DNA from: Octopus sinensis
Taxonomy: Eukaryota
Direction: 5' to 3'
Assembly: GCF_006345805.1 (NCBI RefSeq)
Contig: NC_043001.1
Span: 17,856,001 to 17,920,000, forward strand
Length of the DNA stretch: 64,000 nucleotides
The notes beneath the pieces are model-generated. The model worked only from the letters and a program-made list of their open reading frames with translations. It did not search any database and had not been told where the DNA came from. The translations under genes were made by a program, and so were the position numbers. Of the stretch, positions 3,049 to 63,520 are shown piece after piece. Within the stretch, counting starts at the first letter, position 1, and each line of letters starts with the position of its first letter.

Positions 3049-4100
3049 TAAAGCTACTTTTTGTTTTTAGTAGCTTGCTCATTATTATTTTATTTTATTG
3101 TCACTTACTTTGGCAATTCCGGTTTTTTTTTTCCATATACAAATCAAAACCGTCTCGCTGCTAACTGGTGAATTAGCTCAGACGGTAGAGCGCTCGCTTT
3201 GCATGTGAGAGGTACCGGGATCGATACCCGGATTCTCCAGAAGAGCTACTTTTGTTTTTAATAAATTGTCTACTACTTCCTTTCATTTATATTTGAATTT
3301 CCGAGATTTTTTTAAAATGTTCATGTACGTTACAAAAGCGTTAAAAACCCTACCGGGGAAATAGCACAGCTGCTAGGTCCTCGATTTGCAACTGAGAGCT
3401 ACCGGGATCAATGCCCGGAATCTCCATGAAAGCTGGTTTTCTTTTTAATAACTTGTCTATTACTTCATTTCATTTATTTTTGAAATACCTTGGTTTTCTC
3501 TTTTTTTAATTTTCATATATAGAGCAAAAACCCATGGTCACTAACCGGGAATTAGCTCAACTGGTAGAGAGCTCGGCTTATATTCAGGAGGTACCGGGTT
3601 CGAAACACTGAATCTCCAGTGAAGCTACTTCTGTTTTTAATAACATGTCTATTACGTCATTTCATCTTCATTTACTCTTAAAATTTTGGGTTATTAAAAA
3701 TTTTCATGGGCATATTAAAAACCTATGACAGCTAATCGCTAACCGGGAAATTACCCCAGGTGGCAGAGCGCTCGCTTTGCATTTGATAGGTAACGGGGTC
3801 GATGCCCGGATTTTCTAATGGATATATTTCTGTTTTTTATTAACTTGCAAATTTTTTCGTTTCACTTTCATTTACATTTCAAATTCCGGGATTTTTGTTT
3901 AATATTCATATACATAGCAAACCCTATGTTTACTCAGCGTAGAATTAGCTCAGGATACAGGGCACTCGGTTTACATGCGATATGTACCGGGTGCAGTCCA
4001 CGGATTCTCCAGTAATACAACTTTTGTTTTGTTATTATATCTCTTGTTTCATTTTATTTTTATTTACTTTTGAAATTCCAGGAATTTAAAAAAAATTTTC
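3049..4100 (+). repeat. Continuation of degenerate tRNA-Ala array
   Basis: Near-intact copy at 3167-3239 and decayed copies near 3355, 3546, 3745 and 3937 with the same spacer. Confidence 0.8.
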
Positions 4101-5305: not shown

Positions 5306-5872
5306 TACATAAAAAACGTATGTTCTTCAACCGGGGAAATATTTGAGGGGGTAGAGCACTCGCTTTGCATTCGAGGAGTATCGTGATCGAATCCCAGGTT
5401 CTGCAGGAAAGCTGCGTTATATTTTAATATCTTTTCTTTTAATTCGTTTCATTTACTTTTGATATTCCGGTTGTTTTCGTATATTTTTATTTTCATACAC
5501 ATGACAAAACTTGTGGTCACTAACCGAGAAATTGGATCTGTTGGTAGATCGCTCCCGGTTAGTGAACATAAGTTTATTTTATGCATATGAACATTTCTAT
5601 TTTGAGTAAACGTAGGTATTTTGTTATGTGTATAAATATTTAGAAAGTAGACCCGTAAATGTAAAGGAAGTTGAGAAAGATATCAAGTATTGAAGACAAC
5701 GATGTTCCACTGGAGAAATCCGTGAGCACTCAACCATTTGAGCCAATTCTCTGGCGAGTGTTCACGGGCTTTTTTTATGAATATCAAACTTTTATAAAAT
5801 TCCCGATTTTCAAAACAATATATAAGTGATATATAGCAGTTGAGAAATTATTGAAATAGAAAGAATCTTCAT

Positions 5873-11800: not shown

Positions 11801-14800
11801 GTTGAAAACAAACCCGGAATATCAAAAGTAAATGAAATCAATAGGGAAGGTATGAAAAACAAAAGAAAATTAAATAGAAAATCCGGGTATCGATCCCGGT
11901 ACCTCTCGCATGCAAAGCGAGCGCTCTACCATCTGAGCTAATTCCCCCTTCCACAGGGGGCTGATGTTAGATAAATATGAAAGGTTGAAAACAAACCCGG
12001 AATATCAAAAGTAAGTGAAATCAATAGGCATGTTATGAAAAACAAAAGAAACTTCAATGGAGAATCCGGGTATCGATCCCGGTACCTCTCGCATGCAAAG
12101 CGAGCGCTCTACCATCTGAGCTAATTCCCCCTTCCACAGAGGGCTGATGTTAGATAAATATGAAAGGTTGAAAACAAACCCGGAATATCAAAAGTAAGTG
12201 AAATCAATAGGCATGTTATGAAAAACAAAAGAAACTTCAATGGAGAATCCGGGTATCGATCCCGGTACCTCTCGCATGCAAAGCGAGCGATCTACCATCT
12301 GAGCTAATTCCCCCATCCACAGGTTGCTGATGTTAGATAAATATGAAAGGTTGAAAACAAACCCGGAATATCAAACGTAAATGAAATCAATAGGCAAGTT
12401 ATGAAAAACAAAAGAAACTTCAATGGAGAATCCGGGTATCGATCCCGGTACCTCTCGCATGCAAATCGAGCGCTCTACCATCTGAGCCAATTCCACCCTC
12501 CACAGGTTGCTGATGTTAGATAAATAATAAAAAACAAAACACGGAATATCAAACGTAAATGAAATCAATAGGCAAGTTATGAAAAACAAATGAAACTTCA
12601 ATGGAGAATCCGGGTATCGATCCCGGTACCTCTCGCATGCAAAGCGAGCGCTCTACCATCTGAGCTAATTCCCCATGTTGCTGATGTTAGATAAATATGA
12701 AAGTTGAAAACGAACCCGGAATATCAAACGTAAATGTAATCAATAAGCAAGTTATGAAAAACAAAAGAAACTTCAATGGAGAATCCGGGTATCGATCCCG
12801 GTACCTCTCGCATGCAAAGCGAGCGCTCTACCATCTGAGCTAATTCCCCCATCACAGGTTGCTGATGTTAGATAAATATGAAAGGTTGAAAACAAACCCG
12901 GAATATCAAACGTGAATGTAATCAATAGGCAAGTTATGAAAAACAAAAGAAACTTCAATGGAGAATCCGGGTATCGATCCCGGTACCTCTCGCATGCAAA
13001 ACGAGCGCTCTACCATCTGAGCCAATTCCCCCCTCCACAGGTTGCTGATGTTAGATAAATATGAAACGTTGAAAACAAACCCGGAATATCAAACGTCAAT
13101 GAAATCAATAAGCATGTTATGAAAAACAAAAGAAACTTCAATGGAGAATCCGGGTATCGATCCCGGTACCTCTCGCATGCAAAGCGAGCGCTCTACCATC
13201 TGAGCCAATTCCCCCCTCCACAGGTTGCTGATGTTAGATAAATATGAAAAGTTGAAAACAAACCCGGAATATCAAACGTAAATGAAATCAATAGGCAAGT
13301 TATGAAAAACAAATGAAACTTCAATGGAGAAACCGGGTATCGATCCCGGTACCCCTCGCATGCAAAGCGAGCGCTCTACCATCCGAACTAATTCCCCATG
13401 TTGCTGATGTTAGATAAATATGAAAAGTTGAAAACGAACCCGGAATATCAAACGTAAATGTAATCAATAAGCAAGTTATGAAAAACAAAAGAAACTTCAA
13501 TGGAGAATCCGGGTATCGATCCCGGTACCTCTCGCATGCAAAGCGAGCGCTCTACCATCTGAGCTAATTCCCCCTTCCACAGGTTGCTGATGTTAGATAA
13601 ATATGAAAAGTTGAAAACAAACCCGGAATATCAAACGTAAATGAAATCAATAGGCAAGTTATGAAAAACAAAAGAAACTTCAATGGAGAATCCGGGTATC
13701 GATCCCGGTACCTCTCGCATGCAAAGCGAGCGCTCTACCATCTGAGCTAATTCCCCATGTTGCTGATGTTAGATAAATATGAAAAGTTGAAAACGAACCC
13801 GGAATATCAAACGTAAATGTAATCAATAAGCAAGTTATGAAAAACAAAAGAAACTTCAATGGAGAATCCGGGTATCGATCCCGGTACCTCTCGCATGCAA
13901 AGCGAGCGCTCTACCATCTGAGCTAATTCCCCCATCACAGGTTGCTGATGTTAGATAAATATGAAAGGTTGAAAACAAACCCGGAATATCAAACGTGAAT
14001 ATAATCAATAGGCAAGTTATGAAAAACAAAAGAAACTTCAATGGAGAATCCGGGTATCGATCCCGGTACCTCTCGCATGCAAAACGAGCGCTCTACCATC
14101 TGAGCCAATTCCCCCCTCCACAGGTTGCTGATGTTAGATAAATATGAAACGTTGAAAACAAACCCGGAATATCAAACGTCAATGAAATCAATAAGCATGT
14201 TATGAAAAACAAAAGAAACTTCAATGGAGAATCCGGGTATCGATCCCGGTACCTCTCGCATGCAAAGCGAGCGCTCTACCATCTGAGCCAATTCCCCCCT
14301 CCACAGGTTGCTGATGTTAGATAAATATGAAAAGTGAAAACACAAACCCGGAATATCAAACGTAATGAAATCAATAGGCAAGTTATGAAAAACAAATGAA
14401 ACTTCAATGGAGAAACCGGGTATCGATCCCGGTACCCCTCGCATGCAAAGCGAGCGCTCTACCATCCGAACTAATTCCCCATGTTGCTGATGTTAGATAA
14501 ATATGAAAAGTTGAAAACGAACCCGGAATATCAAACGTAAATGTAATCAATAAGCAAGTTATGAAAAACAAAAGAAACTTCAATGGAGAATCCGGGTATC
14601 GATCCCGGTACCTCTCGCATGCAAAGCGAGCGCTCTACCATCTGAGCTAATTCCCCCTTCCACAGGTTGCTGATGTTAGATAAATATGAAAAGTTGAAAA
14701 CAAACCCGGAATATCAAACGTAAATGAAATCAATAGGCAAGTTATGAAAAACAAAAGAAACTTCAATGGAGAATCCGGGTATCGATCCCGGTACCTCTCG

Positions 14801-15554
14801 CATGCAAAGCGAGCGCTCTACCATCTGAGCTAATTCCCCATGTTGCTGATGTTAGATAAATATGAAAAGTTGAAAACGAACCCGGAATATCAAACGTAAA
14901 TGTAATCAATAAGCAAGTTATGAAAAACAAAAGAAACTTCAATGGAGAATCCGGGTATCGATCCCGGTACCCCTCGCATGCAAAGCGAGCGCTCTACCAT
15001 CTGAGCTAATTCCCCCTTCCACAGGTTGCTGATGTTAGATAAATATGAAAGTTGAAAACAAACCCGGAATATCAAACGTAAATGAAATCAATAGGCAAGT
15101 TATGAAAAACAAATGAAACTTCAATGGAGAATCCGGGTATCGATCCCGGTACCTCTCGCATGCAAAGCGAGCGCTCTACCATCTGAGCTAATTCCCCATG
15201 TTGCTGATGTTAGATAAATGAAAAGTTGAAAACGAACCCGGAATATCAAACGTAAATGTAATCAATAAGCAAGTTATGAAAAACAAAAGAAACTTCAATG
15301 GAGAATCCGGGTATCGATCCCGGTACCTCTCGCATGCAAAGCGAGCGCTCTACCATCTGAGCTAATTCCCCCTTCCACAGGTTGCTGATGTTAGATAAAT
15401 ATGAAAAGTTGAAAACAAACCCGGAATATCAAACGTAAATGAAATCAATAGGCAAGTTATGAAAAACAAATGAAACTTCAATGGAGAATCCGGGTATCGA
15501 TCCCGGTACCTATCGCATGCAAAGCGAGCGCTGTACCATCTGAGCTAATTCCCC
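5873..15554 (-). tRNA. Homogeneous tandem array of about 54 tRNA-Ala(TGC) genes, unit 176-183 bp
   Basis: TGGAGAATCCGGGTATCGATCCCGGTACCTCTCGCATGCAAAGCGAGCGCTCTACCATCTGAGCTAATTCCCC recurs from 5873 to 15482; each gene is followed on the minus strand by TTTCTTTTGTTTTT (Pol III terminator-like); many copies exact, others with 1-5 changes. Confidence 0.95.
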
Positions 15555-16261
15555 ATTCCACAGGCTTTCGAATGTAAATAAAATGGAATGAAGTAATAGA
15601 CAAGTTATTAAAACAAAAATAGCTGCAGTGGAGAATCTGGGCATTGATCCCGTACCTCTCGCATGCAAAGCGAGCGCTCTACCACCTTAATTAATCCACC
15701 TGGACAGCTGCAGCGAACGATTTTGTGCATATGAAATGTTGAAAATGAAATCAAGTGATAGACAAGTTATTAAAAACAAAAGCAGCGTTATTGGAGAATA
15801 CGGATATCGAACCCGCTAGCTCTCGTATGCCAAATAAGCGCACTACCACTTGAGCTGAACCTCCCTGTTGGCAACCATGGACGTTTGTTATGCATATGAA
15901 AACAAAAACAAATCATAGAACTTAAAACGTATAAGGTGCCCAAATAACAGACAACGAAATTAATTTCACAGGGAAATCCGGTTATTTTCTATTACTTCTC
16001 ACACGTAAAGCGAGCGTTCTGCCAACAGAGCCAGTTTCATGGTTAGTAATTATGGCTTTTGTTATGTATATTAAAATGACAAAAGAAGCCGGAATTTCGA
16101 AAGTAATGTTATGAAAATGCAACGCAGCTTTCCTGAAGAATCCGGGAATTGACACCGGTGCCTCTCGTATGTAAAGCGTAACAAACAAAAGTATTTTTTA
16201 TGATATTCCGGGTTGGTTTTCAACTTTTCATATGGATAACAAACAACCTAATCTGTCAACT

Positions 16262-34058: not shown

Positions 34059-34487
34059 TTTGAATAGGATAAGCTAGGCTTAGATTTATTTGAATAGGAT
34101 AAGCTAGGCTTAGATTTATTTGAATAGGATAAGCTAGGCTTAGATTTATTTGAATAGGATAAGCTAGGCTTAGATTTATTTGAATAGGATAAGCTAGGCT
34201 TAGATTTATTTGAATAGGATAAGCTAGGCTTAGATTTATTTGAATAGGATAAGCTAGGCTTAGATTTATTTGAATAGGATAAGCTAGGCTTAGATTTATT
34301 TGAATAGGATAAGCTAGGCTTAGATTTATTTGAATAGGATAAGCTAGGCTTAGATTTATTTGAATAGGATAAGCTAGGCTTAGATTTATTTGAATAGGAT
34401 AAGCTAGGCTTAGATTTATTTGAATAGGATAAGCTAGGCTTAGATTTATTTGAATAGGATAAGCTAGGCTTAGATTTATTTGAATAA
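34059..34487. repeat. Perfect 30-bp minisatellite, about 14 copies
   Basis: TGAATAGGATAAGCTAGGCTTAGATTTATT repeated without substitutions. Confidence 0.97.
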
Positions 34488-42892: not shown

Positions 42893-43665
42893 AGTTAACA
42901 GAATTGTGTATGGCAGAAAGATAAATGGACTTGCTGTCGTAGCCAAGATGCTTGTGTGACCAGCGGTCAAAGATAACAAAAGTAATAAATGAAGACATTA
43001 AAATTAAATAAAATTAGGAATGGGTTTGTATCTGTATGTATATGTGTGTATGTGTAGGTATGTATAGGTACACATATGTGTATATATATATATATAGTAT
43101 ATATGATATATATGTGTGTGTATATGTATATAATGTGTATATAGGGACTGGTGTGTTGTGTGTGCATGTGTTGTATGTGGATATGTGTGTGTATGTGTGT
43201 ATGTGTATGTGTGTTGTATGTATATATCTTTTTTGTGTGATATATTATGTGTGGTCGTGTGTGTATATATACATGGTGTGTATATGTATATGCATATATG
43301 TGTGTATATATGTATATATATATATATAATATATTGTGTGTGTAGATATATGTATGTAATATGTGTGTATGTATATATGTGTGTGTGTGTGTATGCATGT
43401 GTGTATGTATATATGTGTGTGTGTGTGTATATATGTATACATATGTGTAGAGGTATAAGTGAGAATCTCCTTATTTACCTAAAACTCTATTCTTCTATAT
43501 ATTTTTTTATTCTTTTATTAATTCTTTTATCTAATTTACCACTGACTCCTTGACCACTCCCCCAAGTATTATTTTTGCGCTATGCTATCCACCCCAAAAA
43601 AGTCCCCCACCACCGCCCCTTTAAACCTGCCTAATGTATAAATGCCAATACAATTCTTGTTAACT

Positions 43666-43716
43666 AGCTTCCTGAAGATTTCTCTTGAATGAAACAGTTC
43701 TAGTCCTGTAGAAGCT
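43666..43716 (+). ncRNA. Type I hammerhead ribozyme
   Basis: AGCTTC-CTGAAGA-TTTC(TCTT)GAAT-GAA-ACAG(TTCTAGTC)CTGT-A-GAAGCT: three helices, GUA triplet at 43708-43710. Confidence 0.8.
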
Positions 43717-43835
43717 CCTTCTATATAATAATATATATATATATATATATATGTAGGTCCGGTTTGAGTCGCGGTTAACCACAGTAAATAAGGTACTCAA
43801 TACATAGCAGAGTAAATTAATTATTTTATAGAAGG

Positions 43836-43933
43836 AGCTTCTACAGGACTAGAACTGTTTCATTGCAATGAAATCATCAGGAAGCTTCCTGATGATTTCA
43901 TTTGAATGAAACAGTTCTAGTCCTGTAGAAGTT
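43836..43933. ncRNA. Back-to-back hammerhead pair (43836-43886 minus; 43883-43933 plus)
   Basis: Both carry CTGATGA, GAAA and ACAG/CTGT-A; inverted repeat centred on GAAGCTTC at 43881-43888. Confidence 0.75.
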
Positions 43934-43947
43934 CCTTCCTAAAATAT

Positions 43948-44061
<114 letters not shown>

Positions 44062-44699
44062 CCTAATGGGGGCCTTAACTCCCAAAATTTTGTCATTTCT
44101 TTTTTGATCCAAAAACTAGGTTAAAAGTACTGAATGAATCTTTATGAAATTTGGAAATTATATTCTATGCATAAGGGCCATAACCCCCATGACAATTCAT
44201 ATATTTTTGTTGTTGAGGAAATTTTAACCATAGATATTAGACACAAATGAAGTAATATTTATAAAATTCCATCTTCATACAAGTTATAAAGACCCCACCA
44301 TGGGGACTTAACATCCGCAATTTTGTCATTTTATCAAAGCAAAAACGAATACAGTTGTGCTCTTGGAAGCTGTAGAGTTACCCGAGCATAAAAGTTGAGC
44401 ATTATTTGTAATTCAATGGTACAACAGTGTAAGAGTTTGCTTTGGCATACACATACATTGTGATTTCTGCAATGTGGTGCATAAATTGTCAAGTAAATGA
44501 GAGGCACCTTTGCCTCCACTGACTCAGTTGTAAAGTGTTGAGTAAAGTTATTTGATTGCAGACTTCCTTTCAGTCTTTTTATTATCACTCGGTCACACAT
44601 AGTCCCCAGATGGTAACGTTGATTTCAAGGCCTTCCCAGATGAGTGACTGATCAGTATAGTGGTCATTTGCAAACTCCAACTTTCATTTCTCCTTAGCC

Positions 44700-46405
44700 C
44701 TTGGTAGACTCAACAGGCGTATCGATTGAGGACCCTTATCAACAGAGTCAATTATTTGCCGAGGCTTTTTCAACTATTTTCAAACAAGATGATGGTCGTG
44801 AACCCCCTCCATTTGATAGATCGGTACCTCCAATGCTTCGATTGGTCATCACGCGGGACGAAGTCAAACGTGTTATTCAAGGCCTCGATGTCAACAAGGG
44901 TCACGGCCCTGACGGCATACACCCACGGGTTATCAAAGCGTTGGCTCCGGTCATCTGCGAGCCCTTAAACACGACTATTCAATATGTCATTGGCGACGGG
45001 TGTTATACCTGCAGACTGGAGAACAGCGATAATCTGCCCAATTTTCAAGAAAGGAGCCGCGAAGACCCGCTTAATACCGACCGGTTTCCCTTACATCAAT
45101 AATCAGCAAGATGTTCGAAACCATCCTTAAGAAAAGTATGATGCTCCACCTCCTAACACAGCCTCTATCTCTTATTCCCAACACGGCTTCGTGCCGAAGA
45201 GATCATGCTTGACCAACTTACTAGTAAGAAGAATTGGTGACGCGCATCCTCGATGATAGTGATGCTGTTGACATCGTTTTTATGGACTTTGCCAAAGCTT
45301 TTGACTCGGTAAACCACCGCCTATTACTTGTCAAGCTTCAGCATATAGTTTCCATCCGGATATTATACGATGGGTTGGTGCCTTCCTCTCAGATCGCTCC
45401 TTCCAAGTCCAAGTTAATGGTTCGCGGTCCGACGTCTCCAGTGCGAGCAGTGGCGTGCCTCAAGGTTCAGTGCTTGGGCCCTTGTTGTTCTTAGTCTTCA
45501 TAAATGACTTGCCGACGACCTCACGCAACACACCCTTCTATTTGCCGACGATATCAAACTGGTCGCTCCTCGCGGTAATATAGAGGATCTTCGTCGATGC
45601 CTCCACCAAATTTGGAAGTGGTCTAACGATTGGGACCTGTGTCTAACGTGTCAAAGTGCTGTCATCTGCCTGTCGGCTCTACTCCTGCAACTCAACTTGA
45701 TTTCGAGCCGGGTCGTCTGCTGCTGGAGAGGACCGATCAGGTAAAGGGCCTGGGTATCTTGGTGGATTCCTCCTTTTCGCCTTCGGCCCAGTGCGTCCAT
45801 GCTGCCAACAAAGCACGCGGAATTCTGTTCTTGATTTGACGGTCATTCGGAATGTTCACAGCAGCCATATTCCTACCACTCTATGTCACGCTGGTGAGAC
45901 CCATATTGGAGTATGGGATTCACGCCTCTTCTCCTTATCTCCACAAAGACATACAGCATCTCGAAAGAGTCCAGAAGCTGGCTACCCGCATGGTTCATGG
46001 TCTCAAAAATTTGTCCTATGAAGAAAGGCTGAGGACGCTCGACCTTATTCTCTTGAAAAACGCCGCCGCCGTGGTGATCTCATTCTCTCGCCCACAACAT
46101 TATAAGCGGAAGTGTAACCTCTCGAAGAGCTGTTCTTCACTCCTGCTCCAGAGCGTCGGCTGCGGGGTCATTCCGAAAAGCTCTACCTGCGACGATTTCA
46201 TCTCAATCGAAGGAAGGAGCTTTTCTCCGTCGGGTTCGGTCCGTGGAACAAGCTGCCAGACGAGATGGTGTGATGTTAGCCTCCCTGGACCTCAAGTGCC
46301 TGAACTCTTTACATGAACACCACCCTGTACTTAACTCCATGTCCCCCTACATGGCCTTGCTATTTGCTTTTGAGCCAAATTAACTAACTAACTAACTAAC
46401 TAACT
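44700..46405 (+). mobile_element. CR1-like LINE reverse transcriptase pseudogene with 3' UTR
   Basis: KGHGPDGIHPRV, MDFAKAFDSVNH, GVPQGSVLGP, FADD, LVRPILEY, LSYEERL; (TAAC)n tail; many frameshifts. Confidence 0.92.
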
Positions 46406-49121: not shown

Positions 49122-49254
49122 TCGCGCTTAAGCATATATGTTGGTGCAGGCATGGCTGTCTGGTTACGAGGTCCGCTTCGGAACTACATAGCTACGAGTT
49201 CGGTCCCACACTATGGAATCTTGGACAAATAGCTTTTTCTATAGCTCCAAATTG

Positions 49255-52200
49255 AAATGTTTGATAGATTGCGGTTAATTCATTCTCTCTTACCTGTTTG
49301 TGTCAGCCTTCCAATTGCTGTTTTTACTGAGATCTCCCTTTTTAGTAGAAGAAATAGCTATAACCCTTTGACTGCTATTTCTAAATTCGGTATGTGGTAA
49401 GGCAATTCGTTGCTGAACCCTTATTGCTTAGTATTACTTAAATTTTCCTCAATGAGGCTTTTACATGCCGAAGACTACTTGGTGTAATTGATAATTATTC
49501 TAAATTAATTAATTTCACCCTTCATTATTACGGATAACCATATTTTATCTCAGTAGATGACTACAGCATCTTGTTTTGGCTACACGCGGGTGGGAAGGGG
49601 CTGTTGACACAATCGTTTCATTCACAAATTTGAATTCGGTGATACTAGTTGAGGATTCTAGCTCGCTCTGATACTGAGTTGAGTTGGTACCTCCTAGTAT
49701 CTCAAAATTCAATATATAATCATTTATGATTATAGTATTCCACGCTGAAGAGAAAAGAAGTTTCGGTAAGATAGAATTATTTAATATTTAATATTTTAAT
49801 TCTTATGCTTTCCTAAAACTTGATTTCGAAACGTACGTCCGTGGATAACTTTAAAAATGTTTGATAGATTGCGGTTAATTCATTCTCTCTTACCTGTTTG
49901 TGTCAGCCTTCCAATTGCTGTTTTTACTGAGATCTCCCTTTTTAGTAGAAGAAATAGCTATAACCCTTTGACTGCTATTTCTAAATTCGGTATGTGGTAA
50001 GGCAATTCGTTGCTGAACCCTTATTGCTTAGTATTACTTAAATTTTCCTCAAATGAGGCTTTTACATGCCGAAGACTACTTGGTGTAATTGATAATTATT
50101 CTAAATTAATTAATTTCACCCTTCATTATTACGGATAACCATATTTTATCTCAGTAGATGACTACAGCATCTTGTTTTGGCTACACGCGGGTGGGAAGGG
50201 GCTGTTGACACAATCGTTTCATTCACAATTTGAATTCGGTGATACTAGTTGAGGATTCTAGCTCGCTCTGATACTGAGTTGAGTTGGTACCTCCTAGTAG
50301 TCTCAAAATTCAATATATAATCATTTATGATTATAGTATTCCACGCTGAAGAGAAAAGAAGTTTCGGTAAGATAGATTATTTTTAATATTTAATATTTTA
50401 ATTCTTATGCTTTCCTAAAACTTGATTTCGAAACGTACGTCCGTGGATAACTTTAAAAATGTTTGATAGATTGCGGTTAATTCATTCTCTCTTACCTGTT
50501 TGTGTCAGCCTTCCAATTGCTGTTTTTACTGAGATCTCCCTTTTTAGTAGAAGAAATAGCTATAACCCTTTGACTGCTATTTCTAAATTCGGTATGTGGT
50601 AAGGCAATTCGTTGCTGAACCCTTATTGCTTAGTATTACTTAAATTTTCCTCAAATGAGGCTTTTACATGCCGAAGACTACTTGGTGTAATTGATAATTA
50701 TTCTAAATTAATTAATTTCACCCTTCATTATTACGGATAACCATATTTTATCTCAGTAGATGACTACACAGCATCTTGTTTTGGCTACACGCGGGTGGGA
50801 AGGGGCTGTTGACACAATCGTTTCATTCACAAATTTGAATTCGGTGATACTAGTTGAGGATTCTAGCTCGCTCTGATACTGAGTTGAGTTGGTAACCTCC
50901 TAGTATCTCAAAATTCATATATAATCATTTATGATTATAGTATTCCACGCTGAAGAGAAAGAAGTTTCGGTAAGATAGAATTATTTAATATTTAATATTT
51001 TAATTCTTATGCTTTCCTAAAACTTGATTTCGAAACGTACGTCCGTGGATAACTTAAAAATGTTTGATAGATTGCGGTTAATTCATTCTCTCTTACCTGT
51101 TTGTGTCAGCCTTCCAATTGCTGTTTTTACTGAGATCTCCCTTTTTAGTAGAAGAAATAGCTATAACCCTTTGACTGCTATTTCTAAATTCGGTATGTGG
51201 TAAGGCAATTCGTTGCTGAACCCTTATTGCTTAGTATTACTTAAATTTTCCTCAAATGAGGCTTTTACATATGCCGAAGACTACTTGGTGTAATTGATAA
51301 TTATTCAAATTAATTAATTTCACCCTTCATTATTACGGATAACCATATTTTATCTCAGTAGATGACTACAGCATCTTGTTTTGGCTACACGCGGGTGGGA
51401 AGGGGCTGTTGACACAATCGTTTCATTCACAAATTTGAATTCGGTGATACTAGTTGAGGATTCTAGCTCGCTCTGATACTGAGTTGAGTTGGTACCTCCT
51501 AGTATCTCAAAATTCAATATATAATCATTTATGATTATAGTATTCCACGCTGAAGAGAAAAGAAGTTCGGTAAGATAGAATTATTTAATATTTAATATTT
51601 AATTCTTATGCTTTCCTAAAACTTGATTTCGAAACGTACGTCCGTGGATAACTTTAAAAATGTTTGATAGATTGCGGTTAATTCATTCTCTCTTACCTGT
51701 TTGTGTCAGCCTTCCAATTGCTGTTTTTACTGAGATCTCCCTTTTTAGTAGAAGAATAGCTATAACCCTTTGACTGCTATTTCTAAATTCGGTATGTGGT
51801 AAGGCAATTCGTTGCTGAACCCTTATTGCTTAGTATTACTTAAATTTTCCTCAAATGAGGCTTTTACATGCCGAAGACTACTTGGTGTAATTGATAATTA
51901 TTCTAAATTAATTAATTTCACCCTTCATTATTACGGATAACCATATTTTATCTCAGTAGATGACTACAGCATCTTGTTTTGGCTACACGCGGGTGGGAAG
52001 GGGCTGTTGACACAATCGTTTCATTCACAAATTTGAATTCGGTGATACTAGTTGAGGATTCTAGCTCGCTCTGATACTGAGTTGAGTTGGTACCCCTCCT
52101 AGTATCTCAAAATTCAATATATAATCATTTATGATTATAGTATTCCACGCTGAAGAGAAAAGAAGTTTCGGTAAGATAGAATTATTTAATATTTAATATT

Positions 52201-55200
52201 TTAATTCTTATGCTTTCCTAAAACTTGATTTCGAAACGTACGTCCGTGGATAACTTTAAAAATGTTTGATAGATTGCGGTTAATTCATTCTCTCTTACCT
52301 GTTTGTGTCAGCCTTCCAATTGCTGTTTTTACTGAGATCTCCCTTTTTAGTAGAAGAAATAGCTATAACCCTTTGACTGCTATTTCTAAATTCGGTATGT
52401 GGTAAGGCAATTCGTTGCTGACCCTTATTGCTTAGTATTACTTAAATTTTCCTCAAATGAGGCTTTTACATGCCGAAGACTACTTGGTGTAATTGATAAT
52501 TATTCTAAATTAATTAATTTCACCCTTCATTATTACGGATAACCATATTTTATCTCAGTAGATGACTACAGCATCTTGTTTTGGCTACACGCGGGTGGGA
52601 AGGGCTGTTGACACAATCGTTTCATTCACAAATTTGAATTCGGTGATACTAGTTGAGGATTCTAGCTCGCTCTGATACTGAGTTGAGTTGGTACCTCCTA
52701 GTATCTCAAAATTCAATATATAATCATTTATGATTATAGTATTCCACGCTGAAGAGAAAAGAGTTTCGGTAAGATAGAATTATTTAATATTTAATATTTA
52801 ATTCTTATGCTTTCCTAAAACTTGATTTCGAAACGTACGTCCGTGGATAACTTTAAAAATGTTTGATAGATTGCGGTTAATTCATTCTCTCTTACCTGTT
52901 TGTGTCAGCCTTCCAATTGCTGTTTTTACTGAGATCTCCCTTTTTAGTAGAAGAAATAGCTATAACCCTTTGACTGCTATTTCTAAATTCGGTATGTGGT
53001 AAGGCAATTCGTTGCTGAACCCTTATTGCTTAGTATTACTTAAATTTTCCTCAAATGAGGCTTTTACATGCCGAAGACTACTTGGTGTAATTGATAATTA
53101 TTCTAAATTAATTAATTTCACCCTTCATTATTACGGATAACCATATTTTATCTCAGTAGATGACTACAGCATCTTGTTTTGGCTACACGCGGGTGGGAAG
53201 GGGCTGTTGACACAATCGTTTCATTCACAAATTTGAATTCGGTGATACTAGTTGAGGATTCTAGCTCGCTCTGATACTGAGTTGAGTTGGTACCTCCTAG
53301 TATCTCAAAATTCAATATATAATCATTTATGATTATAGTATTCCACGCTGAAGAGAAAAGAAGTTTCGGTAAGATAGAATTATTTATTTTAATATTTTAA
53401 TTCTTATGCTTTCCTAAAACTTGATTTCGAAACGTACGTCCGTGGATAACTTTAAAAATGTTTGATAGATTGCGGTTAATTCATTCTCTCTTACCTGTTT
53501 GTGTCAGCCTTCCAATTGCTGTTTTTACTGAGATCTCCCTTTTTAGTAGAGAAATAGCTATAACTATAACCCTTTGACTGCTATTTCTAAATTCGGTATG
53601 TGGTAAGGCAATTCGTTGCTGAACCCTTATTGCTTAGTATTACTTAAATTTTCCTCAATGAGGCTTTTACATGCCGAAGACTACTTGGTGTATTGATAAT
53701 TATTCTAAATTAATTAATTTCACCCTTCATTATTACGGATAACCATATTTTATCTCAGTAGATGACTACAGCATCTTGTTTTGGCTACACGCGGGTGGGA
53801 AGGGGCTGTTGACACAATCGTTTCATTCACAAATTTGAATTCGGTGATACTAGTTGAGGATTCTAGCTCGCTCTGATACTGAGTTGAGTTGGTACCTCCT
53901 AGTATCTCAAAATTCAATATATAATCATTTATGATTATAGTATTCCACGCTGAAGAGAAAAGAAGTTTCGGTAAGATAGAATTATTTAATATTTAATATT
54001 TTAATTCTTATGCTTTCCTAAAACTTGATTTCGAAACGTACGTCCGTGGATAACTTTAAAAATGTTTGATAGATTGCGGTTAATTCATTCTCTCTTACCT
54101 GTTTGTGTCAGCCTTCCAATTGCTGTTTTTACTGAGATCTCCCTTTTTAGTAGAAGAAATAGCTATAACCCTTTGACTGCTATTTCTAAATTCGGTATGT
54201 GGTAAGGCAATTCGTTGCTGAACCCTTATTGCTTAGTATTACTTAAATTTTCCTCAAATGAGGCTTTTACATGCCGAAGACTACTTGGTGTAATTGATAA
54301 TTATTCTAAATTAATTAATTTCACCCTTCATTATTACGGATAACCATATTTTATCTCAGTAGATGACTACAGCATCTTGTTTTGGCTACACGCGGGTGGG
54401 AAGGGGCTGTTGACACAATCGTTTCATTCACAAATTTGAATTCGGTGATACTAGTTGAGGATTCTAGCTCGCTCTGATACTGAGTTGAGTTGGTACCCTG
54501 GTCTATCTCAAATTCAATATATAATCATTTATGATTATAGTATTCCACGCTGAAGAGAAAAGAAGTTTCGGTAAGATAGAATTATTAATATTTAATATTT
54601 TAATTCTTATGCTTTCCTAAAACTTGATTTCGAAACGTACGTCCGTGGATAACTTTAAAAATGTTTGATAGATTGCGGTTAATTCATTCTCTCTTACCTG
54701 TTTGTGTCAGCCTTCCAATTGCTGTTTTTACTGAGATCTCCCTTTTTAGTAGAAGAAATAGCTATAACCCTTTGACTGCTATTTCTAAATTCGGTATGTG
54801 GTAAGGCAATTCGTTGCTGAACCCTTATTGCTTAGTATTACTTAAATTTTCCTCAAATGAGGCTTTTACATGCCGAAGACTACTTGGTGTAATTGATAAT
54901 TATTCTAAATTAATTAATTTCACCCTTCATTATTACGGATAACCATATTTTATCTCAGTAGATGACTACAGCATCTTGTTTTGGCTACACGCGGGTGGGA
55001 AGGGGCTGTTGACACAATCGTTTCATTCACAATTTGAATTCGGTGATACTAGTTGAGGATTCTAGCTCGCTCTGATACTGAGTTGAGTTGTACCTCCTAG
55101 TATCTCAAAATTCAATATATAATCATTTATGATTATAGTATTCCACGCTGAAGAGAAAGAAGTTTCGGTAAGATAGAATTATTTAATATTTAATATTTTA

Positions 55201-58200
55201 ATTCTTATGCTTTCCTAAAACTTGATTTCGAAACGTACGTCCGTGGATAACTTTAAAAATGTTTGATAGATTGCGGTTAATTCATTCTCTCTTACCTTTT
55301 GTGTCAGCCTTCCAATTGCTGTTTTTACTGAGATCTCCCTTTTTAGTAGAAGAAATAGCTATAACCCTTTGACTGCTATTTCTAAATTCGGTATGTGGTA
55401 AGGCAATCGTTGCTGAACCCTTATTGCTTAGTATTACTTAAATTTTCCTCAAATGAGGCTTTTACATGCCGAAGACTACTTGGTGTAATTGATAATTATT
55501 CTAAATTAATTAATTTCACCCTTCATTATTACGGATAACCATATTTTCTCAGTAGATGACTACAGCATCTTGTTTTGGCTACACGCGGGTGGGAAGGGCT
55601 GTTGACACAATCGTTTCATTCACAAATTTGAATTCGGTGATACTAGTTGAGGATTCTAGCTCGCTCTGATACTGAGTTGAGTTGGTACCTCCTAGTATCT
55701 CAAAATTCAATATATAATCATTTATGATTATAGTATTCCACGCTGAAGAGAAAAGAAGTTTCGGTAAGATAGAATTATTTAATATTTAATATTTTAATTC
55801 TTATGCTTTCCTAAAACTTGATTTCGAAACGTACGTCCGTGGATAACTTTAAAAATGTTGATAGATTGCGGTTAATTCATTCTCTCTTACCTGTTTGTGT
55901 CAGCCTTCCAATTGCTGTTTTTACTGAGATCTCCCTTTTTAGTAGAAGAAATAGCTATAACCCTTTGACTGCTATTTCTAAATTCGGTATGTGGTAAGGC
56001 AATTCGTTGCTGAACCCTTATTGCTTAGTATACTACTTAATTTTCCTCAAATGAGGCTTTTACATGCCGAAGACTACTTGGTGTAATTGATAATTATTCT
56101 AAATTAATTAATTTCACCCTTCATTATTACGGATAACCATATTTTATCTCAGTAGATGACTACAGCATCTTGTTTTGGCTACACGCGGGTGGGAAGGGGC
56201 TGTTGACACAATCGTTTCATTCACAAATTTGAATTCGGTGATACTAGTTGAGGATTCTAGCTCGCTCTGATACTGAGTTGAGTTGGTACCTCCTAGTATC
56301 TCAAAATTCAATATATAATCATTTATGATTATAGTATTCCACGCTGAAGAGAAAAGAAGTTTCGGTAAGATAGAATTATTTAATATTTAATATTTTAATT
56401 CTTATGCTTTCCTAAAACTTGATTTCGAAACGTACGTCCGTGGATAACTTTAAAAATGTTTGATAGATTGCGGTTAATTCATTCTCTCTTACCTGTTTGT
56501 GTCAGCCTTCCAATTGCTGTTTTTACTGAGATCTCCCTTTTTAGTAGAAGAAATAGCTATAACCCTTTGACTGCTATTTCTAAATTCGGTATGTGGTAAG
56601 GCAATTCGTTGCTGAACCCTTATTGCTTAGTATTACTTAAATTTTCCTCAAATGAGGCTTTTACATGCCGAAGACTACTTGGTGTAATTGATAATTATTC
56701 TAAATTAATTATTTCACCCTTCATTATTACGGATAACCATATTTTATCTCAGTAGATGACTACAGCATCTTGTTTTGGCTACACGCGGGTGGGAGGGGCT
56801 GTTGACACAATCGTTTCATTCACAAATTGAATTCGGTGATACTAGTTGAGGATTCTAGCTCGCTCTGATACTGAGTTGAGTTGGTACCTCCTAGTATCTC
56901 AAAATTCAATATATAATCATTTTGATTATAGTATTCCACGCTGAAGAGAAAAGAAGTTTCGGTAAGATAGAATTATTTAATATTTAATATTTTAATTCTT
57001 TGCTTTCCTAAAACTGATTTCGAAACGTACGTCCGGGATAACTTTAAAAATGTTTGATAGATTGCGGTTAATTCATTCTCTCTTACCTGTTTGTGTCAGC
57101 CTTCCAATTGCTGTTTTTACTGAGATCTCCCTTTTTAGTAGAAGAAATAGCTATAACCCTTTGACTGCTATTTCTAAATTCGGTATGTGGTAAGGCAATT
57201 CGTTGCTGAACCCTTATTGCTTAGTATTACTTAAATTTTCCTCAATGAGGCTTTTACATGCCGAAGACTACTTGGTGTAATTGATAATTATTCTAAATTA
57301 ATTAATTTCACCCTTCATTATTACGGATAACCATATTTTATCTCAGTAGATGACTACAGCATCTTGTTTTGGCTACACGCGGGTGGGAAGGGGCTGTTGA
57401 CACAATCGTTTCATTCACAAATTTGAATTCGGTGATACTAGTTGAGGATTCTAGCTCGCTCTGATACTGAGTTGAGTTGGTACCTCCTAGTATCTCAAAA
57501 TTCAATATAATCATTTATGATTATAGTATTCCACGCTGAAGAGAAAAGAAGTTTCGGTAAGATAGAATTATTTAATATTTAATATTTTAATTCTTATGCT
57601 TTCCTAAAACTTGATTTCGAAACGTACGTCCGTGGATAACTTTAAAAATGTTTGATAGATTGCGGTTAATTCATTCTCTCTTACCTGTTTGTGTCAGCCT
57701 TCCAATTGCTGTTTTTACTGAGATCTCCCTTTTTAGTAGAAGAAATAGCTATAACCCTTTGACTGCTATTTCTAAATTCGGTATGTGGTAAGGCAATTCG
57801 TTGCTGAACCCTTATTGCTTAGTATTACTTAAATTTTCCTCAAATGAGGCTTTTACATGCCGAAGACTACTTGGTGTAATTGATAATTATTCTAAATTAA
57901 TTAATTTCACCCTTCATTATTACGGATAACCATATTTTATCTCAGTAGATGACTACAGCATCTTGTTTTGGCTACACGCGGGTGGGAAGGGCTGTTGACA
58001 CAATCGTTTCATTCACAAATTTGAATTCGGTGATACTAGTTGAGGATTCTAGCTCGCTCTGATACTGAGTTGAGTTGGTACCATGGCCTAGTATCTCAAA
58101 ATTCAATATAAATCATTTATGATTATAGTATTCCACGCTGAAGAGAAAAGAAGTTTCGGTAAGATAGAATTATTTATATTTAATATTTTAATTCTTATGC

Positions 58201-61093
58201 TTTCCTAAAACTTGATTTCGAAACGTACGTCCGTGGATAACTTTAAAAATGTTTGATAGATTGCGGTTAATTCATTCTCTCTTACCTGTTTGTGTCAGCC
58301 TTCCAATTGCTGTTTTTACTGAGATCTCCCTTTTTAGTAGAAGAAATAGCTATAACCCTTTGACTGCTATTTCTAAATTCGGTATGTGGTAAGGCAATTC
58401 GTTGCTGAACCCTTATTGCTTAGTATTACTTAATTTTCCTCTCAAATGAGGCTTTTACATGCCGAAGACTACTTGGTGTAATTGATAATTATTCTAAATT
58501 AATTAATTTCACCCTTCATTATTACGGATAACCATATTTTATCTCAGTAGATGACTACAGCATCTTGTTTTGGCTACACGCGGGTGGGAAGGGGCTGTTG
58601 ACACAATCGTTTTTCATTCACAAATTTGAATTCGGTGATACTAGTTGAGGATTCTAGCTCGCTCTGATACTGAGTTGAGTGGTACCGTACCTCCTAGTAT
58701 CTCAAAATTCAATATATAATCATTTATGATTATAGTATTCCACGCTGAAGAGAAAAGAAGTTTCGGTAAGATAGAATTATTTAATATTTAATATTTTAAT
58801 TCTTATGCTTTCCTAAAACTTGATTTCGAAACGTACGTCCGTGGATAACTTTAAAAATGTTTGATAGATTGCGTTAATTCATTCTCTCTTACCTGTTTGT
58901 GTCAGCCTTCCAATTGCTGTTTTTACTGAGATCTCCCTTTTTAGTAGAAGAAATAGCTATAACCCTTTGACTGCTATTTCTAAATTCGGTATGTGGTAAG
59001 GCAATTCGTTGCTGAACCCTTATTGCTTAGTATTACTTAAATTTTCCTCAAATGAGGCTTTTACATGCCGAAGACTACTTGGTGTAATTGATAATTATTC
59101 TAAATTAATTAATTTCACCTTCATTATTACGGATAACCATATTTTATCTCAGTAGATGACTACAGCATCTTGTTTTGGCTACACGCGGGTGGGAAGGGGC
59201 TGTTGACACAATCGTTTCATTCACAATTTGAATTCGGTGATACTAGTTGAGGATTCTAGCTCGCTCTGATACTGAGTTGAGTTGGTACCTCCTAGTATCT
59301 CAAAATTCAATATATAATCATTTATGATTATAGTATTCCACGCTGAAGAGAAAAGAAGTTTCGGTAAGATAGAATTATTTAATATTAATATTTTAATTCT
59401 TATGCTTTCCTAAAACTTGATTTCGAAACGTACGTCCGTGGATAACTTTAAAAATGTTTGATAGATTGCGGTTAATTCATTCTCTCTTACCTGTTTGTGT
59501 CAGCCTTCCAATTGCTGTTTTTACTGAGATCTCCCTTTTTAGTAGAAGAAATAGCTATAACCCTTTGACTGCTATTTCTAAATTCGGTATGTGGTAAGGC
59601 AATTCGTTGCTGAACCCTTATTGCTTAGTATTACTTAAATTTTCCTCAAATGAGGCTTTTACATGCCGAAGACTACTTGTGGTGTAATTGATAATTATTC
59701 TAAATTAATTAATTTCACCCTTCATTATTACGGATAACCATATTTTATCTCAGTAGATGACTACAGCATCTTGTTTTGGCTACACGCGGGTGGGAAGGGG
59801 CTGTTGACACAATCGTTTCATTCACAAATTTGAATTCGGTGATACTAGTTGAGGATTCTAGCTCGCTCTGATACTGAGTTGAGTTGGTACCCTCTAGTAT
59901 CTCAAAATTCAATATATAATCATTTAATGATTATAGTATTCCACGCTGAAGAGAAAAGAAGTTTCGGTAAGATAGAATTATTTAATTTAATATTTTAATT
60001 CTTATGCTTTCCTAAAACTTGATTTCGAAACGTACGTCCGTGGATAACTTTAAAAATGTTTGATAGATTGCGGTTAATTCATTCTCTCTTACCTGTTTGT
60101 GTCAGCCTTCCAATTGCTGTTTTTACTGAGATCTCCCTTTTTAGTAGAAGAAATAGCTATAACCCTTTGACTGCTATTTCTAAATTCGGTATGTGGTAAG
60201 GCAATTCGTTGCTGAACCCTTATTGCTTAGTATTACTTAAATTTTCCTCAAATGAGGCTTTTACATGCCGAAGACTACTTGGTGTAATTGATAATTATTC
60301 TAAATTAATTAATTTCACCCTTCATTATTACGGATAACCATATTTTATCTCAGATGACTACAACAGCATCTTGTTTTGGCTACACGCGGGTGGGAAGGGG
60401 CTGTTGACACAATCGTTTCATTCACAAATTTGAATTCGGTGATACTAGTTGAGGATTCTAGCTCGCTCTGATACTGAGTTGAGTTGGTACCTCCTAGTAT
60501 CTCAAAATTCAATATATAATCATTTAATTATAGTATTCCATTCCACGCTGAAGAGAAAAGAAGTTTCGGTAAGATAGAATTATTTAATATTTAATATTTT
60601 ATTCTTATGCTTTCCTAAAACTTGATTTCGAAACGTACGTCCGTGGATAACTTAAAAATGTTTGATAGATTGCGGTTAATTCATTCTCTCTTACCTGTTT
60701 GTGTCAGCCTTCCAATTGCTGTTTTTACTGAGATCTCCTTTTTAGTAGAAGAAATAGCTATAACCCTTTGACTGCTATTTCTAAATTCGGTATGTGGTAA
60801 GGCAATTCGTTGCTGAACCCTTATTGCTTAGTATTACTTAATTTTCCTCAATGAGGCTTTTACATGCCGAAGACTACTTGGTGTAATATAATTATTCTAA
60901 ATTAATTAATTTCACCCTTCATTATTACGGATAACCATATTTTATCTCAGTAGATGACTACAGCATCTTGTTTTGGCTACACGCGGGTGGGAAGGGGCTG
61001 TTGACACAATCGTTTCATTCACAAATTTGAATTCGGTGATACTAGTTGAGGATTCTAGCTCGCTCTGATACTGAGTTGAGTTGGTACCTCCTC
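49255..61093 (+). repeat. 600-bp tandem array, 19 full units plus a ~0.7 unit, highly homogeneous
   Basis: AAATGTTTGATAGATTGCGG recurs at 49255, 49855, 50457 ... 60655; differences are almost all small indels. Confidence 0.98.
49739..49845 (+). ncRNA. Type I hammerhead ribozyme (first of 19, one per 600-bp unit)
   Basis: TCCACG-CTGAAGA-GAAA..AAGTTT...AAACTT..TTTC-GAA-AC(GTAC)GT-C-CGTGGA; GUC cleavage predicted after 49839. Confidence 0.85.
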
Positions 61094-61127
<34 letters not shown>

Positions 61128-61147
61128 ATATATATATATTATATGTG

Positions 61148-61178
<31 letters not shown>

Positions 61179-61243
61179 TATGTATGTATATATAGTATAT
61201 ATATCCATATATAATATATGTATGTATGTATTATATATGTATA

Positions 61244-61281
<38 letters not shown>

Positions 61282-61383
61282 TGTATGTATGTATATGTAT
61301 ATATCCATGTATATATGTATGTGTGTATGTATATATATGTATATATATATACATATATATATGTATGTATGTATGTATATATG

Positions 61384-61421
<38 letters not shown>

Positions 61422-61434
61422 ATGTATATATATG

Positions 61435-61468
<34 letters not shown>

Positions 61469-61510
61469 ATATGCATATATATATGTATATTATATATATA
61501 TATATATTAT

Positions 61511-61555
<45 letters not shown>

Positions 61556-61582
61556 ATATATATATATATTATATATATATAT
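61094..61582. repeat. (TA)n/(TG)n/(TATG)n microsatellite
   Basis: Direct reading. Confidence 0.95.
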
Positions 61583-61996
61583 AGGAAGAAAGAGCAGGAT
61601 AGAAAGATAGAGCGACGATGCTGGTGTGGGAGGTTCGGCTTGCCTCCAATCAGCCCCTCTACTAGCATCATCAGAGATAAACGAGCAAAAAACTGTAGCA
61701 CTAGACGTGATCATAAAATTTTGTTTTAAGAAATAAGAAATTATGTTATTTTCCTCTCTCTCCTCCTCCTCTTCCTCCTCCTCAACCTTCTCCTCCCTCT
61801 CACTCCCTCTCTCTTTTTCTTTTTTCTTTTTTAGATCACTGAATTTCTTTTTCTTCTTTTTATAACTCCTTCCTTCTGGAGAAAATAAAACTAGAATAGA
61901 GTCGTTAACTAAAACATTAATACAGCAATTTTTTGAAATCAGTATCTTACCTATCACTCTATATAGCTGTTTGACTGACTGCTTATCTATCTGTCC

Positions 61997-62914: not shown

Positions 62915-63520
62915 GGCGCAGGAGTAGCTGTGTGGTAAGTAGCTTGTTTACCAACCACATGGTTCCGGGTTCAGTCCCACTGTATGGCACCTTGGGCAAG
63001 TGTCTTCTACTATAGCCTCGGGCTGTCCAAAACATTGTGAGTGGATTTGGTAGACGGAAACTGAAAGAAGACCGGGATCTTTTCGGTTTGAATGGCAGTT
63101 TTTTCTAGCGGTGTCATATGAAATTGTCACCCATAATTATGACCCTAGTATCGATCTATTGCATTTCAATCTGTTTTAGGGTTAGGGTTAGGGTTAGGGG
63201 TGGGGGGAAAGGCATCTTTTTTTTCTTCACAAATGTAAATAACCCAATCTGTTTCTTAAACGAGGAATATATTCATACGGCACAGAATGTATTTTTACCT
63301 CAATAGACGTCAGTGATGGGTTGAAATTGCAGAAATTGAAGAAAAAAGCAACAAATATCTTACAAACTATAGAATTTTCCTCATAAGCCAAGAGAAAAAG
63401 ATGTTTTATAAACACATTCTACCTACCATATACGAAGTTTTAAAAGTGTTTAGTTACCTAGAATTATGTTAAAAACTGCCGTTCAAATCGAAAAGATACG
63501 AAGACCGTCGTATATATGTG

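What the first reader, a model, noticed from the sequence alone, without database searches (positions are those of the whole stretch)
49255..61093. 600-bp 'satellite' carries a hammerhead ribozyme in every unit: candidate retrozyme / circular-RNA array
Seen: each full unit has helix I TCCACG/CGTGGA, core CUGAAGA, a long helix II (GAAA/TTTC, AAGTTT/AAACTT, GAATTA/TAATTC), GAAA, and a 2-bp helix III closed by palindromic GUAC, then GUC. No ORF lies in the unit. Known: type I hammerheads with a tiny palindromic helix III occur in Penelope-like element pLTRs and metazoan non-LTR retrozymes (e.g. newt satellite 2), and tandem copies can cleave as dimers; the described metazoan units are generally shorter (a few hundred nt). 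Inference: a plus-strand transcript would self-process into 600-nt monomers that may circularise and be re-inserted by a Penelope-type RT in trans. The large unit, extended helix II and about 20 near-identical copies make it a possibly undescribed family.
Basis: partly seen in the sequence, partly recalled or inferred. Interest (0 to 1): 0.92.

Follow-up and report, generated by a model that had tools for sequence, protein, structure and literature searches.

The report
Ribozyme repeat spread by Penelope machinery
This 600-base repeat is a mobile non-coding RNA element with a self-cutting ribozyme motif, and its many copies across the genome end in a way that points to copying by a Penelope-type retrotransposon enzyme, possibly from a circular RNA.

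Summary
Confirmed: 19.7 units of 601 bp, each full unit with a type I hammerhead (HHR) core and a palindromic helix III. It is one of many dispersed arrays (1,163 exact junction copies) in a superfamily of about 9,800 units. The 600-bp size is not unusual for non-LTR retrozymes (51-972 bp). The insertion footprint is the informative part. In 56 insertions, 78 of 82 3' ends fall at two fixed sites 195 and ~298 nt past the cleavage site, 81 of 82 abut (TA)n, and 5' ends are random. 23 of 26 head-to-head pairs carry one end of each type. A coding Penelope-like element (PLE) in this genome follows the same rule, which matches published PLE biochemistry. A compensated RNA fold surrounds these sites. 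Arrays are internally uniform but differ from each other, which favours rolling-circle copying of a monomer; an uncleaved multimer template is not excluded. Cleavage, expression, circles and the partner element are not shown. The window's own array ends atypically.

The parts
49255..61092 (+). Tandem array of 19.7 units of a 601-bp non-coding retrozyme (family F1); starts at unit phase 16, ends at phase 457 (phase 1 = first base after the GUC site)
   Evidence: 2 singleton substitutions and none shared among 18 full units after masking near indels
49739..49845 (+). Type I hammerhead motif of the first unit: helix I 49739-49744 with 49840-49845, core 49745-49751, extended helix II 49752-49827, GAAA 49828-49831, palindromic helix III 49831-49838, cleavage predicted after C49839
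   Evidence: helix I covaries between families
49950..50121 (+). Conserved structured domain shared by all sister families (hairpin; multiloop closed by helix 49986-49995 with 50064-50073; further hairpin); inferred RT-recognition region
   Evidence: 9,792 genome hits to the closing helix against 1 in the control
50029..50043 (+). Site A (phase 190-204, mostly 195): main 3' end of genomic copies, in an unpaired stretch of the multiloop; inferred RT start site 1
   Evidence: 53 of 82 3' ends; unpaired in the predicted fold
50126..50149 (+). Site B (phase 287-310): second 3' end, giving a ~100-nt tail on one arm of inverted insertions; inferred RT start site 2
   Evidence: 25 of 82 3' ends; 23 of 26 two-armed insertions have one A and one B end
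61093..61583 (.). (TA)n-rich microsatellite at the 3' side of the array, the target type of the family
   Evidence: 81 of 82 3' ends have (TA)4 within 20 nt
49143..49245 (+). Degenerate SINE-like head joined to the 5' end of the array; not part of the element
   Evidence: 70% over 103 bp to the SINE-like repeat near 62915-63016; the SINE label is recalled

Best explanation
The unit is a non-LTR retrozyme, that is, a non-autonomous Penelope-like element. Inferred cycle: (1) an array is transcribed on the + strand; (2) neighbouring hammerheads pair through the palindromic helix III and cut out 601-nt monomers, which a host ligase closes into circles; (3) an RT plus GIY-YIG protein of an autonomous PLE binds the conserved domain, nicks (TA)n DNA and starts reverse transcription at internal site A; (4) when the other target strand is also used as primer, it starts at site B about 100 nt further 3', and the two cDNAs join head to head; (5) the RT runs round the template and stops at random, giving arms of 0.1 to 20 units. 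Shown in sequence: motif, fold conservation, dispersal, fixed ends, target, arm pairing, uniform arrays. Inferred: transcription, cleavage, circularisation, identity of the enzyme. I put PLE-type mobilisation at about 0.9 and the circular monomer template at about 0.6 of that.
For: Dispersal: 1,163 exact copies of the 26-nt junction, control 0. Ends: 78 of 82 3' ends at two sites, 81 of 82 beside (TA)n, 5' ends uniform (Rayleigh p~0.19); all 26 two-armed insertions are head to head with junction gaps of -11 to +10 nt; 28 of 30 insertions with a single 3' end in view end at A. No 3' end falls at the unit's longest TA run, phase 474-480, so the ends are not simple recombination with (TA)n. The same rule holds in family F2: 8 of 9 distinct two-armed insertions with both ends in view, chimera L091 left out. 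It also holds in a coding RT element of this genome: 8 of 8 simple opposite-strand pairs, 36-nt tail. PMC11167929 shows that a PLE protein nicks and extends both strands and starts at two internal sites that delimit the tail. RNA-level selection: circular + strand fold z -8.2 against 40 shuffles, -160 versus -126 kcal/mol for the minus strand; 92% of cells paired, 5 pairs with two-sided changes, G-U exchanges, slid controls 33-48%. Single template: the two arms differ at 3 of 421 informative comparisons against 42% between insertions. In 18 arrays of 5 or more units (142 units), 40 variants are singletons and 3 are shared by some units, while 34 sites are fixed differently between arrays. 7 of 28 arrays have a private fixed variant, 3 of them across both arms. 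Almost no run-off at the cleavage site: 0 of 82 5' ends between phases 580 and 13, and 1 of 7 genome hits is a candidate. One insertion switches from F2 to F1 at a TGA microhomology (L032).
Against: The window's own array breaks the rule: its 3' end is at phase 457 and its 5' flank is not (TA)n. No autonomous PLE with sequence similarity to the unit was found. Two of 18 arrays (L040, L073) are mosaics of common haplotypes, which one circle cannot give without template switching or an assembly artefact. In PMC11167929, HHR mutants inserted normally and unprocessed RNA was the main substrate. Only 1 of 9 Xenopus retrozyme dimers cleaved in vitro. Sister families F2-F5 have GUU at the cleavage site, and F2-F4 a mismatched first pair of helix II. 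Two of five covariation measures did not beat shuffles (105/500 and 492/500), and helix 4 as I drew it failed (52% paired). Polishing of the assembly could make units look more uniform than they are.
Confidence: 0.55

Rival explanations
1. Same element and same PLE-type enzyme, but the template is a long uncleaved multimeric transcript of an existing array. The hammerhead is slow, conditional or used for something else.
For: Explains fixed internal ends, random 5' ends and the lack of run-off equally well. PMC11167929 found unprocessed RNA to be the main substrate and no reads ending at the HHR site. Mosaic arrays L040 and L073.
Against: Daughters could not be longer than their parents and would shrink by 5' truncation, yet arms of 9-20 units are common. 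New variants would start in single units, but variants are singletons or array-wide, with 12 distinct consensuses among 18 arrays and private variants across both arms.
Confidence: 0.3
2. Short PLE-type insertions of one or two units were expanded afterwards at the DNA level (unequal crossing-over), as an ordinary satellite. This is the scenario discussed in 10.64898/2026.07.22.740005.
For: Proposed in that preprint. Could account for the unusually long window array with atypical ends.
Against: Both arms of inverted insertions are often multi-unit and share one haplotype. Arm lengths fall off smoothly from 0.1 unit upward. Variants shared by some units, the usual trace of unequal exchange, number 3 in 142 units.
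Confidence: 0.12
3. The hammerhead is a chance or dead motif in a satellite spread by DNA mechanisms.
For: No Rfam hit; local fold z only -1.75; activity untested.
Against: Invariant core with covarying helix I across families 58% identical; 448 core matches outside the F1 and F2 spacing against 7 in controls; strand-specific fold; polarised ends.
Confidence: 0.03

Closest known systems
Metazoan non-LTR retrozymes (Cervera and de la Pena 2020, PMC7229834; Li, Clavereau and Pollet 2026, 10.64898/2026.07.22.740005)
   Same: Type I HHR in every unit of tandem repeats, GC below 45%, no ORF, strongly self-paired predicted circle with the HHR free to fold, weak palindromic helix III as in amphibian motifs.
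   Different: Unit longer than the 170-400 nt of the first description but within 51-972 bp. Helix II region of 76 nt. A conserved structured domain with two fixed end sites, whereas the 2020 review says metazoan units show no conserved motif pointing to a partner. Expression and circles are not shown here.
Penelope-like elements, EN+ (Craig et al. 2021, PMC8557442; Frangieh et al. 2024, PMC11167929)
   Same: 5' truncation, inverted 5'-truncated copy, tail on one end only, (TA)n targets, ends downstream of an HHR.
   Different: No RT or endonuclease. Tail of about 100 nt instead of 30-40. Whole unit repeated up to 20 times.
Non-autonomous Chlamys elements such as MRC1 of Chlamydomonas (PMC8557442)
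   Same: Non-coding, multicopy head-to-tail insertions made by PLE machinery.
   Different: Those resemble their autonomous partner at the 3' end, and most Chlamys lack an HHR. Here the HHR is present and no similar partner was found.

Membership tests
Non-LTR retrozyme | Type I HHR in each unit of a tandem repeat (at least two consecutive units) | tested here: met
   19 of 19 cores, 18 with perfect helix I; no Rfam model hit
Non-LTR retrozyme | Low GC (<45-50%), no protein coding | tested here: met
   34% GC; longest ATG ORF 47 aa
Non-LTR retrozyme | No LTR, PBS or PPT | tested here: inconclusive
   No LTR structure in 56 insertions; PBS and PPT were not searched for
Non-LTR retrozyme | Unit size in the known range | tested here: met
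   601 bp; above 150-450 bp of PMC7229834, inside 51-972 bp of the 2026 preprint
Non-LTR retrozyme | Highly self-paired monomer | tested here: met
   Predicted only: 64% paired, z -8.2 as a circle
Non-LTR retrozyme | Self-cleavage as monomer or dimer | not testable with these tools
   Energy terms favour the dimer
Non-LTR retrozyme | Expressed as linear and circular RNA | not testable with these tools
   Only contigs could be laid, which cannot show strand, ends or circles
Non-autonomous Penelope-like element | Fixed 3' end with random 5' truncation | tested here: met
   78 of 82 3' ends at two sites; 5' ends uniform; the window's array is one of 4 exceptions
Non-autonomous Penelope-like element | Inverted 5'-truncated copy at the 5' end | tested here: met
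   26 of 56 insertions, all head to head
Non-autonomous Penelope-like element | Tail on one end only (30-40 bp in the literature) | tested here: met
   23 of 26 pairs; the tail is about 100 nt here
Non-autonomous Penelope-like element | Bias for AT-rich or (TA)n targets | tested here: met
   81 of 82 3' flanks
Non-autonomous Penelope-like element | 3' sequence similarity to an autonomous PLE of the same genome | tested here: inconclusive
   None with the one family examined in depth, none next to PLE fragments in held loci, none in 10 diverged singletons; most PLE families of the genome were not examined

The most novel reading that the evidence does not exclude
These arrays are genomic records of rolling-circle reverse transcription of a ribozyme-made circular RNA by a Penelope enzyme. 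The enzyme recognises a conserved RNA fold rather than its own sequence, primes at two internal sites from both strands of a (TA)n target, and can switch between circles of different families. Because both start sites lie just downstream of the cleavage site in the retrozymes and in the coding PLE, the autonomous elements themselves may also use circular templates in vivo.
Probability: 0.4. Interest if true: 0.8.

Novelty: new member of a known kind. Interest (0 to 1): 0.6.

Why it matters
How animal retrozymes are copied back into genomes is stated as open in the papers read. Here a young, high-copy superfamily shows the full Penelope insertion signature and marks, to within a few bases, where reverse transcription starts on a small non-coding RNA with a conserved fold. 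With the published in vitro PLE assay, this makes the circle-versus-linear question directly testable. It also shows that such elements can escape Rfam and pass as satellites.

Tried and rejected
Rfam: no hammerhead hit. Expression: no RNA holder listed among 24 runs; four runs laid as contigs, three with RNA only guessed, so nothing is concluded on transcription. Partner search: 30 loci plus 16 regions of one RT/GIY-YIG family gave no convincing similarity to F1 or F2 (best hits 15-36 bp, AT-rich). Five PLE-like query peptides against held loci showed no coding sequence at an arm's 5' end. Ten diverged singleton copies had no PLE coding sequence upstream; a wider sample of singletons was not obtained. 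A shared 5' flank in L061 and L087 proved to be another non-coding repeat. Pfam found only RVT_1 in the coding element and PDB sequences gave no hit, so its endonuclease and Neptune-type linker are read by eye against motifs in PMC8557442. Folding did not support the HHR-like motif of the coding PLE (z -0.7; one of two windows missed the 5' part) or the small HHR at 43660 (z -0.83). Earlier findings of the scan: none. Rejected: unit size as a novelty; ends as recombination at TA runs; a linear cleaved monomer as template (arms cross the cleavage site up to 19 times).
Full report
Observation. The array spans 49255-61092 and holds 19.7 copies of a 601-bp, 34% GC unit. Rfam does not detect the motif. 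The longest ATG ORF on the circularised unit is 47 aa. Helix III is 2 bp and costs +2.4 kcal/mol as a hairpin, while its 8-nt palindrome self-pairs at -9.8. This is the dimer architecture described in PMC4209133. Below, phase 1 is the first base after the GUC.

It is a dispersed family. The window lies in a 2.72-Gb genome. I did not identify the species; its repeats recall an octopus, which is recalled and untested. The 26-nt junction occurs 1,163 times, control 0. I fetched 60 regions: 33 in listing order and 27 from the best hits, the latter biased to long young arrays. With the window they make 57 insertions, 56 with a 3' end in view. Six BLAST arms were dropped before counting: three from diverged families and three secondary copies beside an arm.

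Insertion footprint. Of 82 3' ends, 53 lie at phase 190-204 (site A), 25 at 287-310 (site B) and 4 elsewhere (154, 248, 273, and 457 in the window itself). 81 of 82 have (TA)4 within 20 nt. The 82 5' ends are spread evenly (Rayleigh p about 0.19). All 26 two-armed insertions are head to head with junction gaps of -11 to +10 nt, and 23 have one A and one B end. 28 of 30 insertions with one 3' end in view end at A. No 3' end falls at the unit's longest TA run. Contigs of runs X1 and X2 (coded organism A) show the same ends followed by (AT)n. These are the features listed for Penelope-like elements: 5' truncation, an inverted truncated copy, a one-sided tail and (TA)n targets. PMC11167929 explains them: the protein nicks and extends both target strands and starts reverse transcription at two internal sites that bound the tail.

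A coding element here obeys the same rule. A family with open frames of 804-850 residues, an RT domain (Pfam RVT_1, E 3e-8) and, by eye, a C-terminal GIY-YIG-type region with a CX4CXXC linker ends in (TA)n. In 8 of 8 simple opposite-strand pairs among 16 regions, one end lies 147 nt and the other 183 nt past an HHR-like motif. That motif has the U3-A8 core variant reported in PMC4209133, but folding did not support it. The family shares no convincing sequence with the retrozyme, so the partner is not identified.

A superfamily with a conserved fold. Family F2 (557 bp, 58% identical) has the same core, three two-sided changes in helix I and the same two end sites. Core searches at other spacings gave 26 and 422 hits against 2 and 5 in controls and revealed further families. 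All share phases ~100-292. On 11 distinct sequences, 92% of cells pair, 5 of 42 pairs change on both sides, several exchange with G-U, and slid controls give 33-48%. Two of five measures did not beat shuffles and one helix as drawn failed. The closing helix has 9,792 genome hits against 1. Site A lies in the unpaired part of this multiloop. The whole F1 unit folds as a circle at -160 kcal/mol against -119+-5 for 40 shuffles and -126 for the minus strand, with helices I and II of the HHR formed.

Circle or multimer. A cleaved linear monomer cannot be the template, since arms cross the cleavage site up to 19 times. No 5' end of 82 lies there, and only 1 of 7 genome hits is a candidate run-off (that pattern covers the younger subfamily only). 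The two arms of an insertion differ at 3 of 421 informative comparisons against 42% between insertions. In 18 arrays of five or more units, 40 variants are singletons and 3 are shared by some units, while 34 sites are fixed differently between arrays. Seven of 28 arrays carry a private fixed variant. This is what repeated copying of one monomer predicts. Against it, L040 and L073 are mosaics, assembly polishing may hide variation, only 57 of probably several hundred insertions were sampled, and PMC11167929 found unprocessed RNA sufficient in vitro. One insertion switches from F2 to F1 at a 3-nt microhomology, which suggests that the families share the enzyme (L032).

The window's array is atypical. 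It ends at phase 457 next to (TA)n and starts in a degenerate SINE-like head. A later deletion or an assembly join is the likely cause; this was not tested.

Comparison and novelty. It meets every retrozyme feature that could be tested and the PLE insertion features, and differs in its ~100-nt tail and long helix II. Unit size is within the published range. A PLE origin of animal retrozymes is already argued from co-occurrence and pLTR similarity, and non-autonomous PLEs with head-to-tail copies are known. In five searches and the texts read I found no description of this family or of two-site, inverted, (TA)n footprints in a retrozyme. The library lacks most subscription papers, no repeat database could be searched, and the preprint's supplements were not seen.

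What I read: 10.64898/2026.07.22.740005, parts 1-3 of 5, abstract to acknowledgements; PMC7229834, passages and Discussion; 10.1101/2021.04.23.441226 and PMC8557442, passages; PMC11167929, parts 1-2 of 4, main text; PMC7761336, passages; PMC4209133, passages.

Verdict. A real, young retrozyme family, a new member of a known kind, interest 0.6. Its value lies in the footprints, which tie retrozymes to Penelope-type priming and set up a direct test of circular templates.

Noticed in passing
window 5860-15564, and scattered copies 132-35297: Tandem array of about 53 units of 183 bp, each with a tRNA-Ala(TGC) gene on the minus strand, plus dispersed tRNA-Ala(TGC/AGC/CGC) copies.
   Followed up: no
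window 43468-43950: Three small hammerhead motifs (43672 +, 43880 -, 43889 +) in (TA)n, including a head-to-head pair with a longer end on one arm; looks like the 3' end of another PLE-type family. Similar sequence in 5 of 229 held loci.
   Followed up: partly
L221 about 645-810: That small-hammerhead element is joined directly to an inverted arm of a diverged retrozyme, a second possible chimera between families.
   Followed up: partly
window 44690-46300: Frameshifted LINE-type RT fragment on the + strand ending in (TAAC)n; recognised by eye.
   Followed up: no
window 34059-34486: Perfect 30-bp repeat, 14.3 copies, 100% matches.
   Followed up: no
L198 6238 and 6742: Two copies, 504 bp apart, of another type I hammerhead with a different palindromic helix III; possibly a further retrozyme family.
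   Followed up: partly
L135 1145 (+) and the opposite-strand copy: Inverted pair of a hammerhead motif with yet another palindromic helix III.
   Followed up: no
L167, L179, L187, L194; L158, L193; L177, L183: Three more groups of old, single hammerheads with the same helix III palindrome but unrelated flanks.
   Followed up: partly
L199 2939-7940: Partial tandem of the coding PLE, with an upstream 495-residue frame before the RT frame; the 3' end of one copy runs into the start of the next.
   Followed up: partly
L086 2583-4983: Insertion of exactly 4.00 units, from phase 195 to phase 195, with (TA)n on both sides.
   Followed up: no
L087 about 7740-8100 and L061 about 3135-3250: Shared non-coding repeat, a long hairpin in L087, at the 5' junction of two insertions.
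   Followed up: partly
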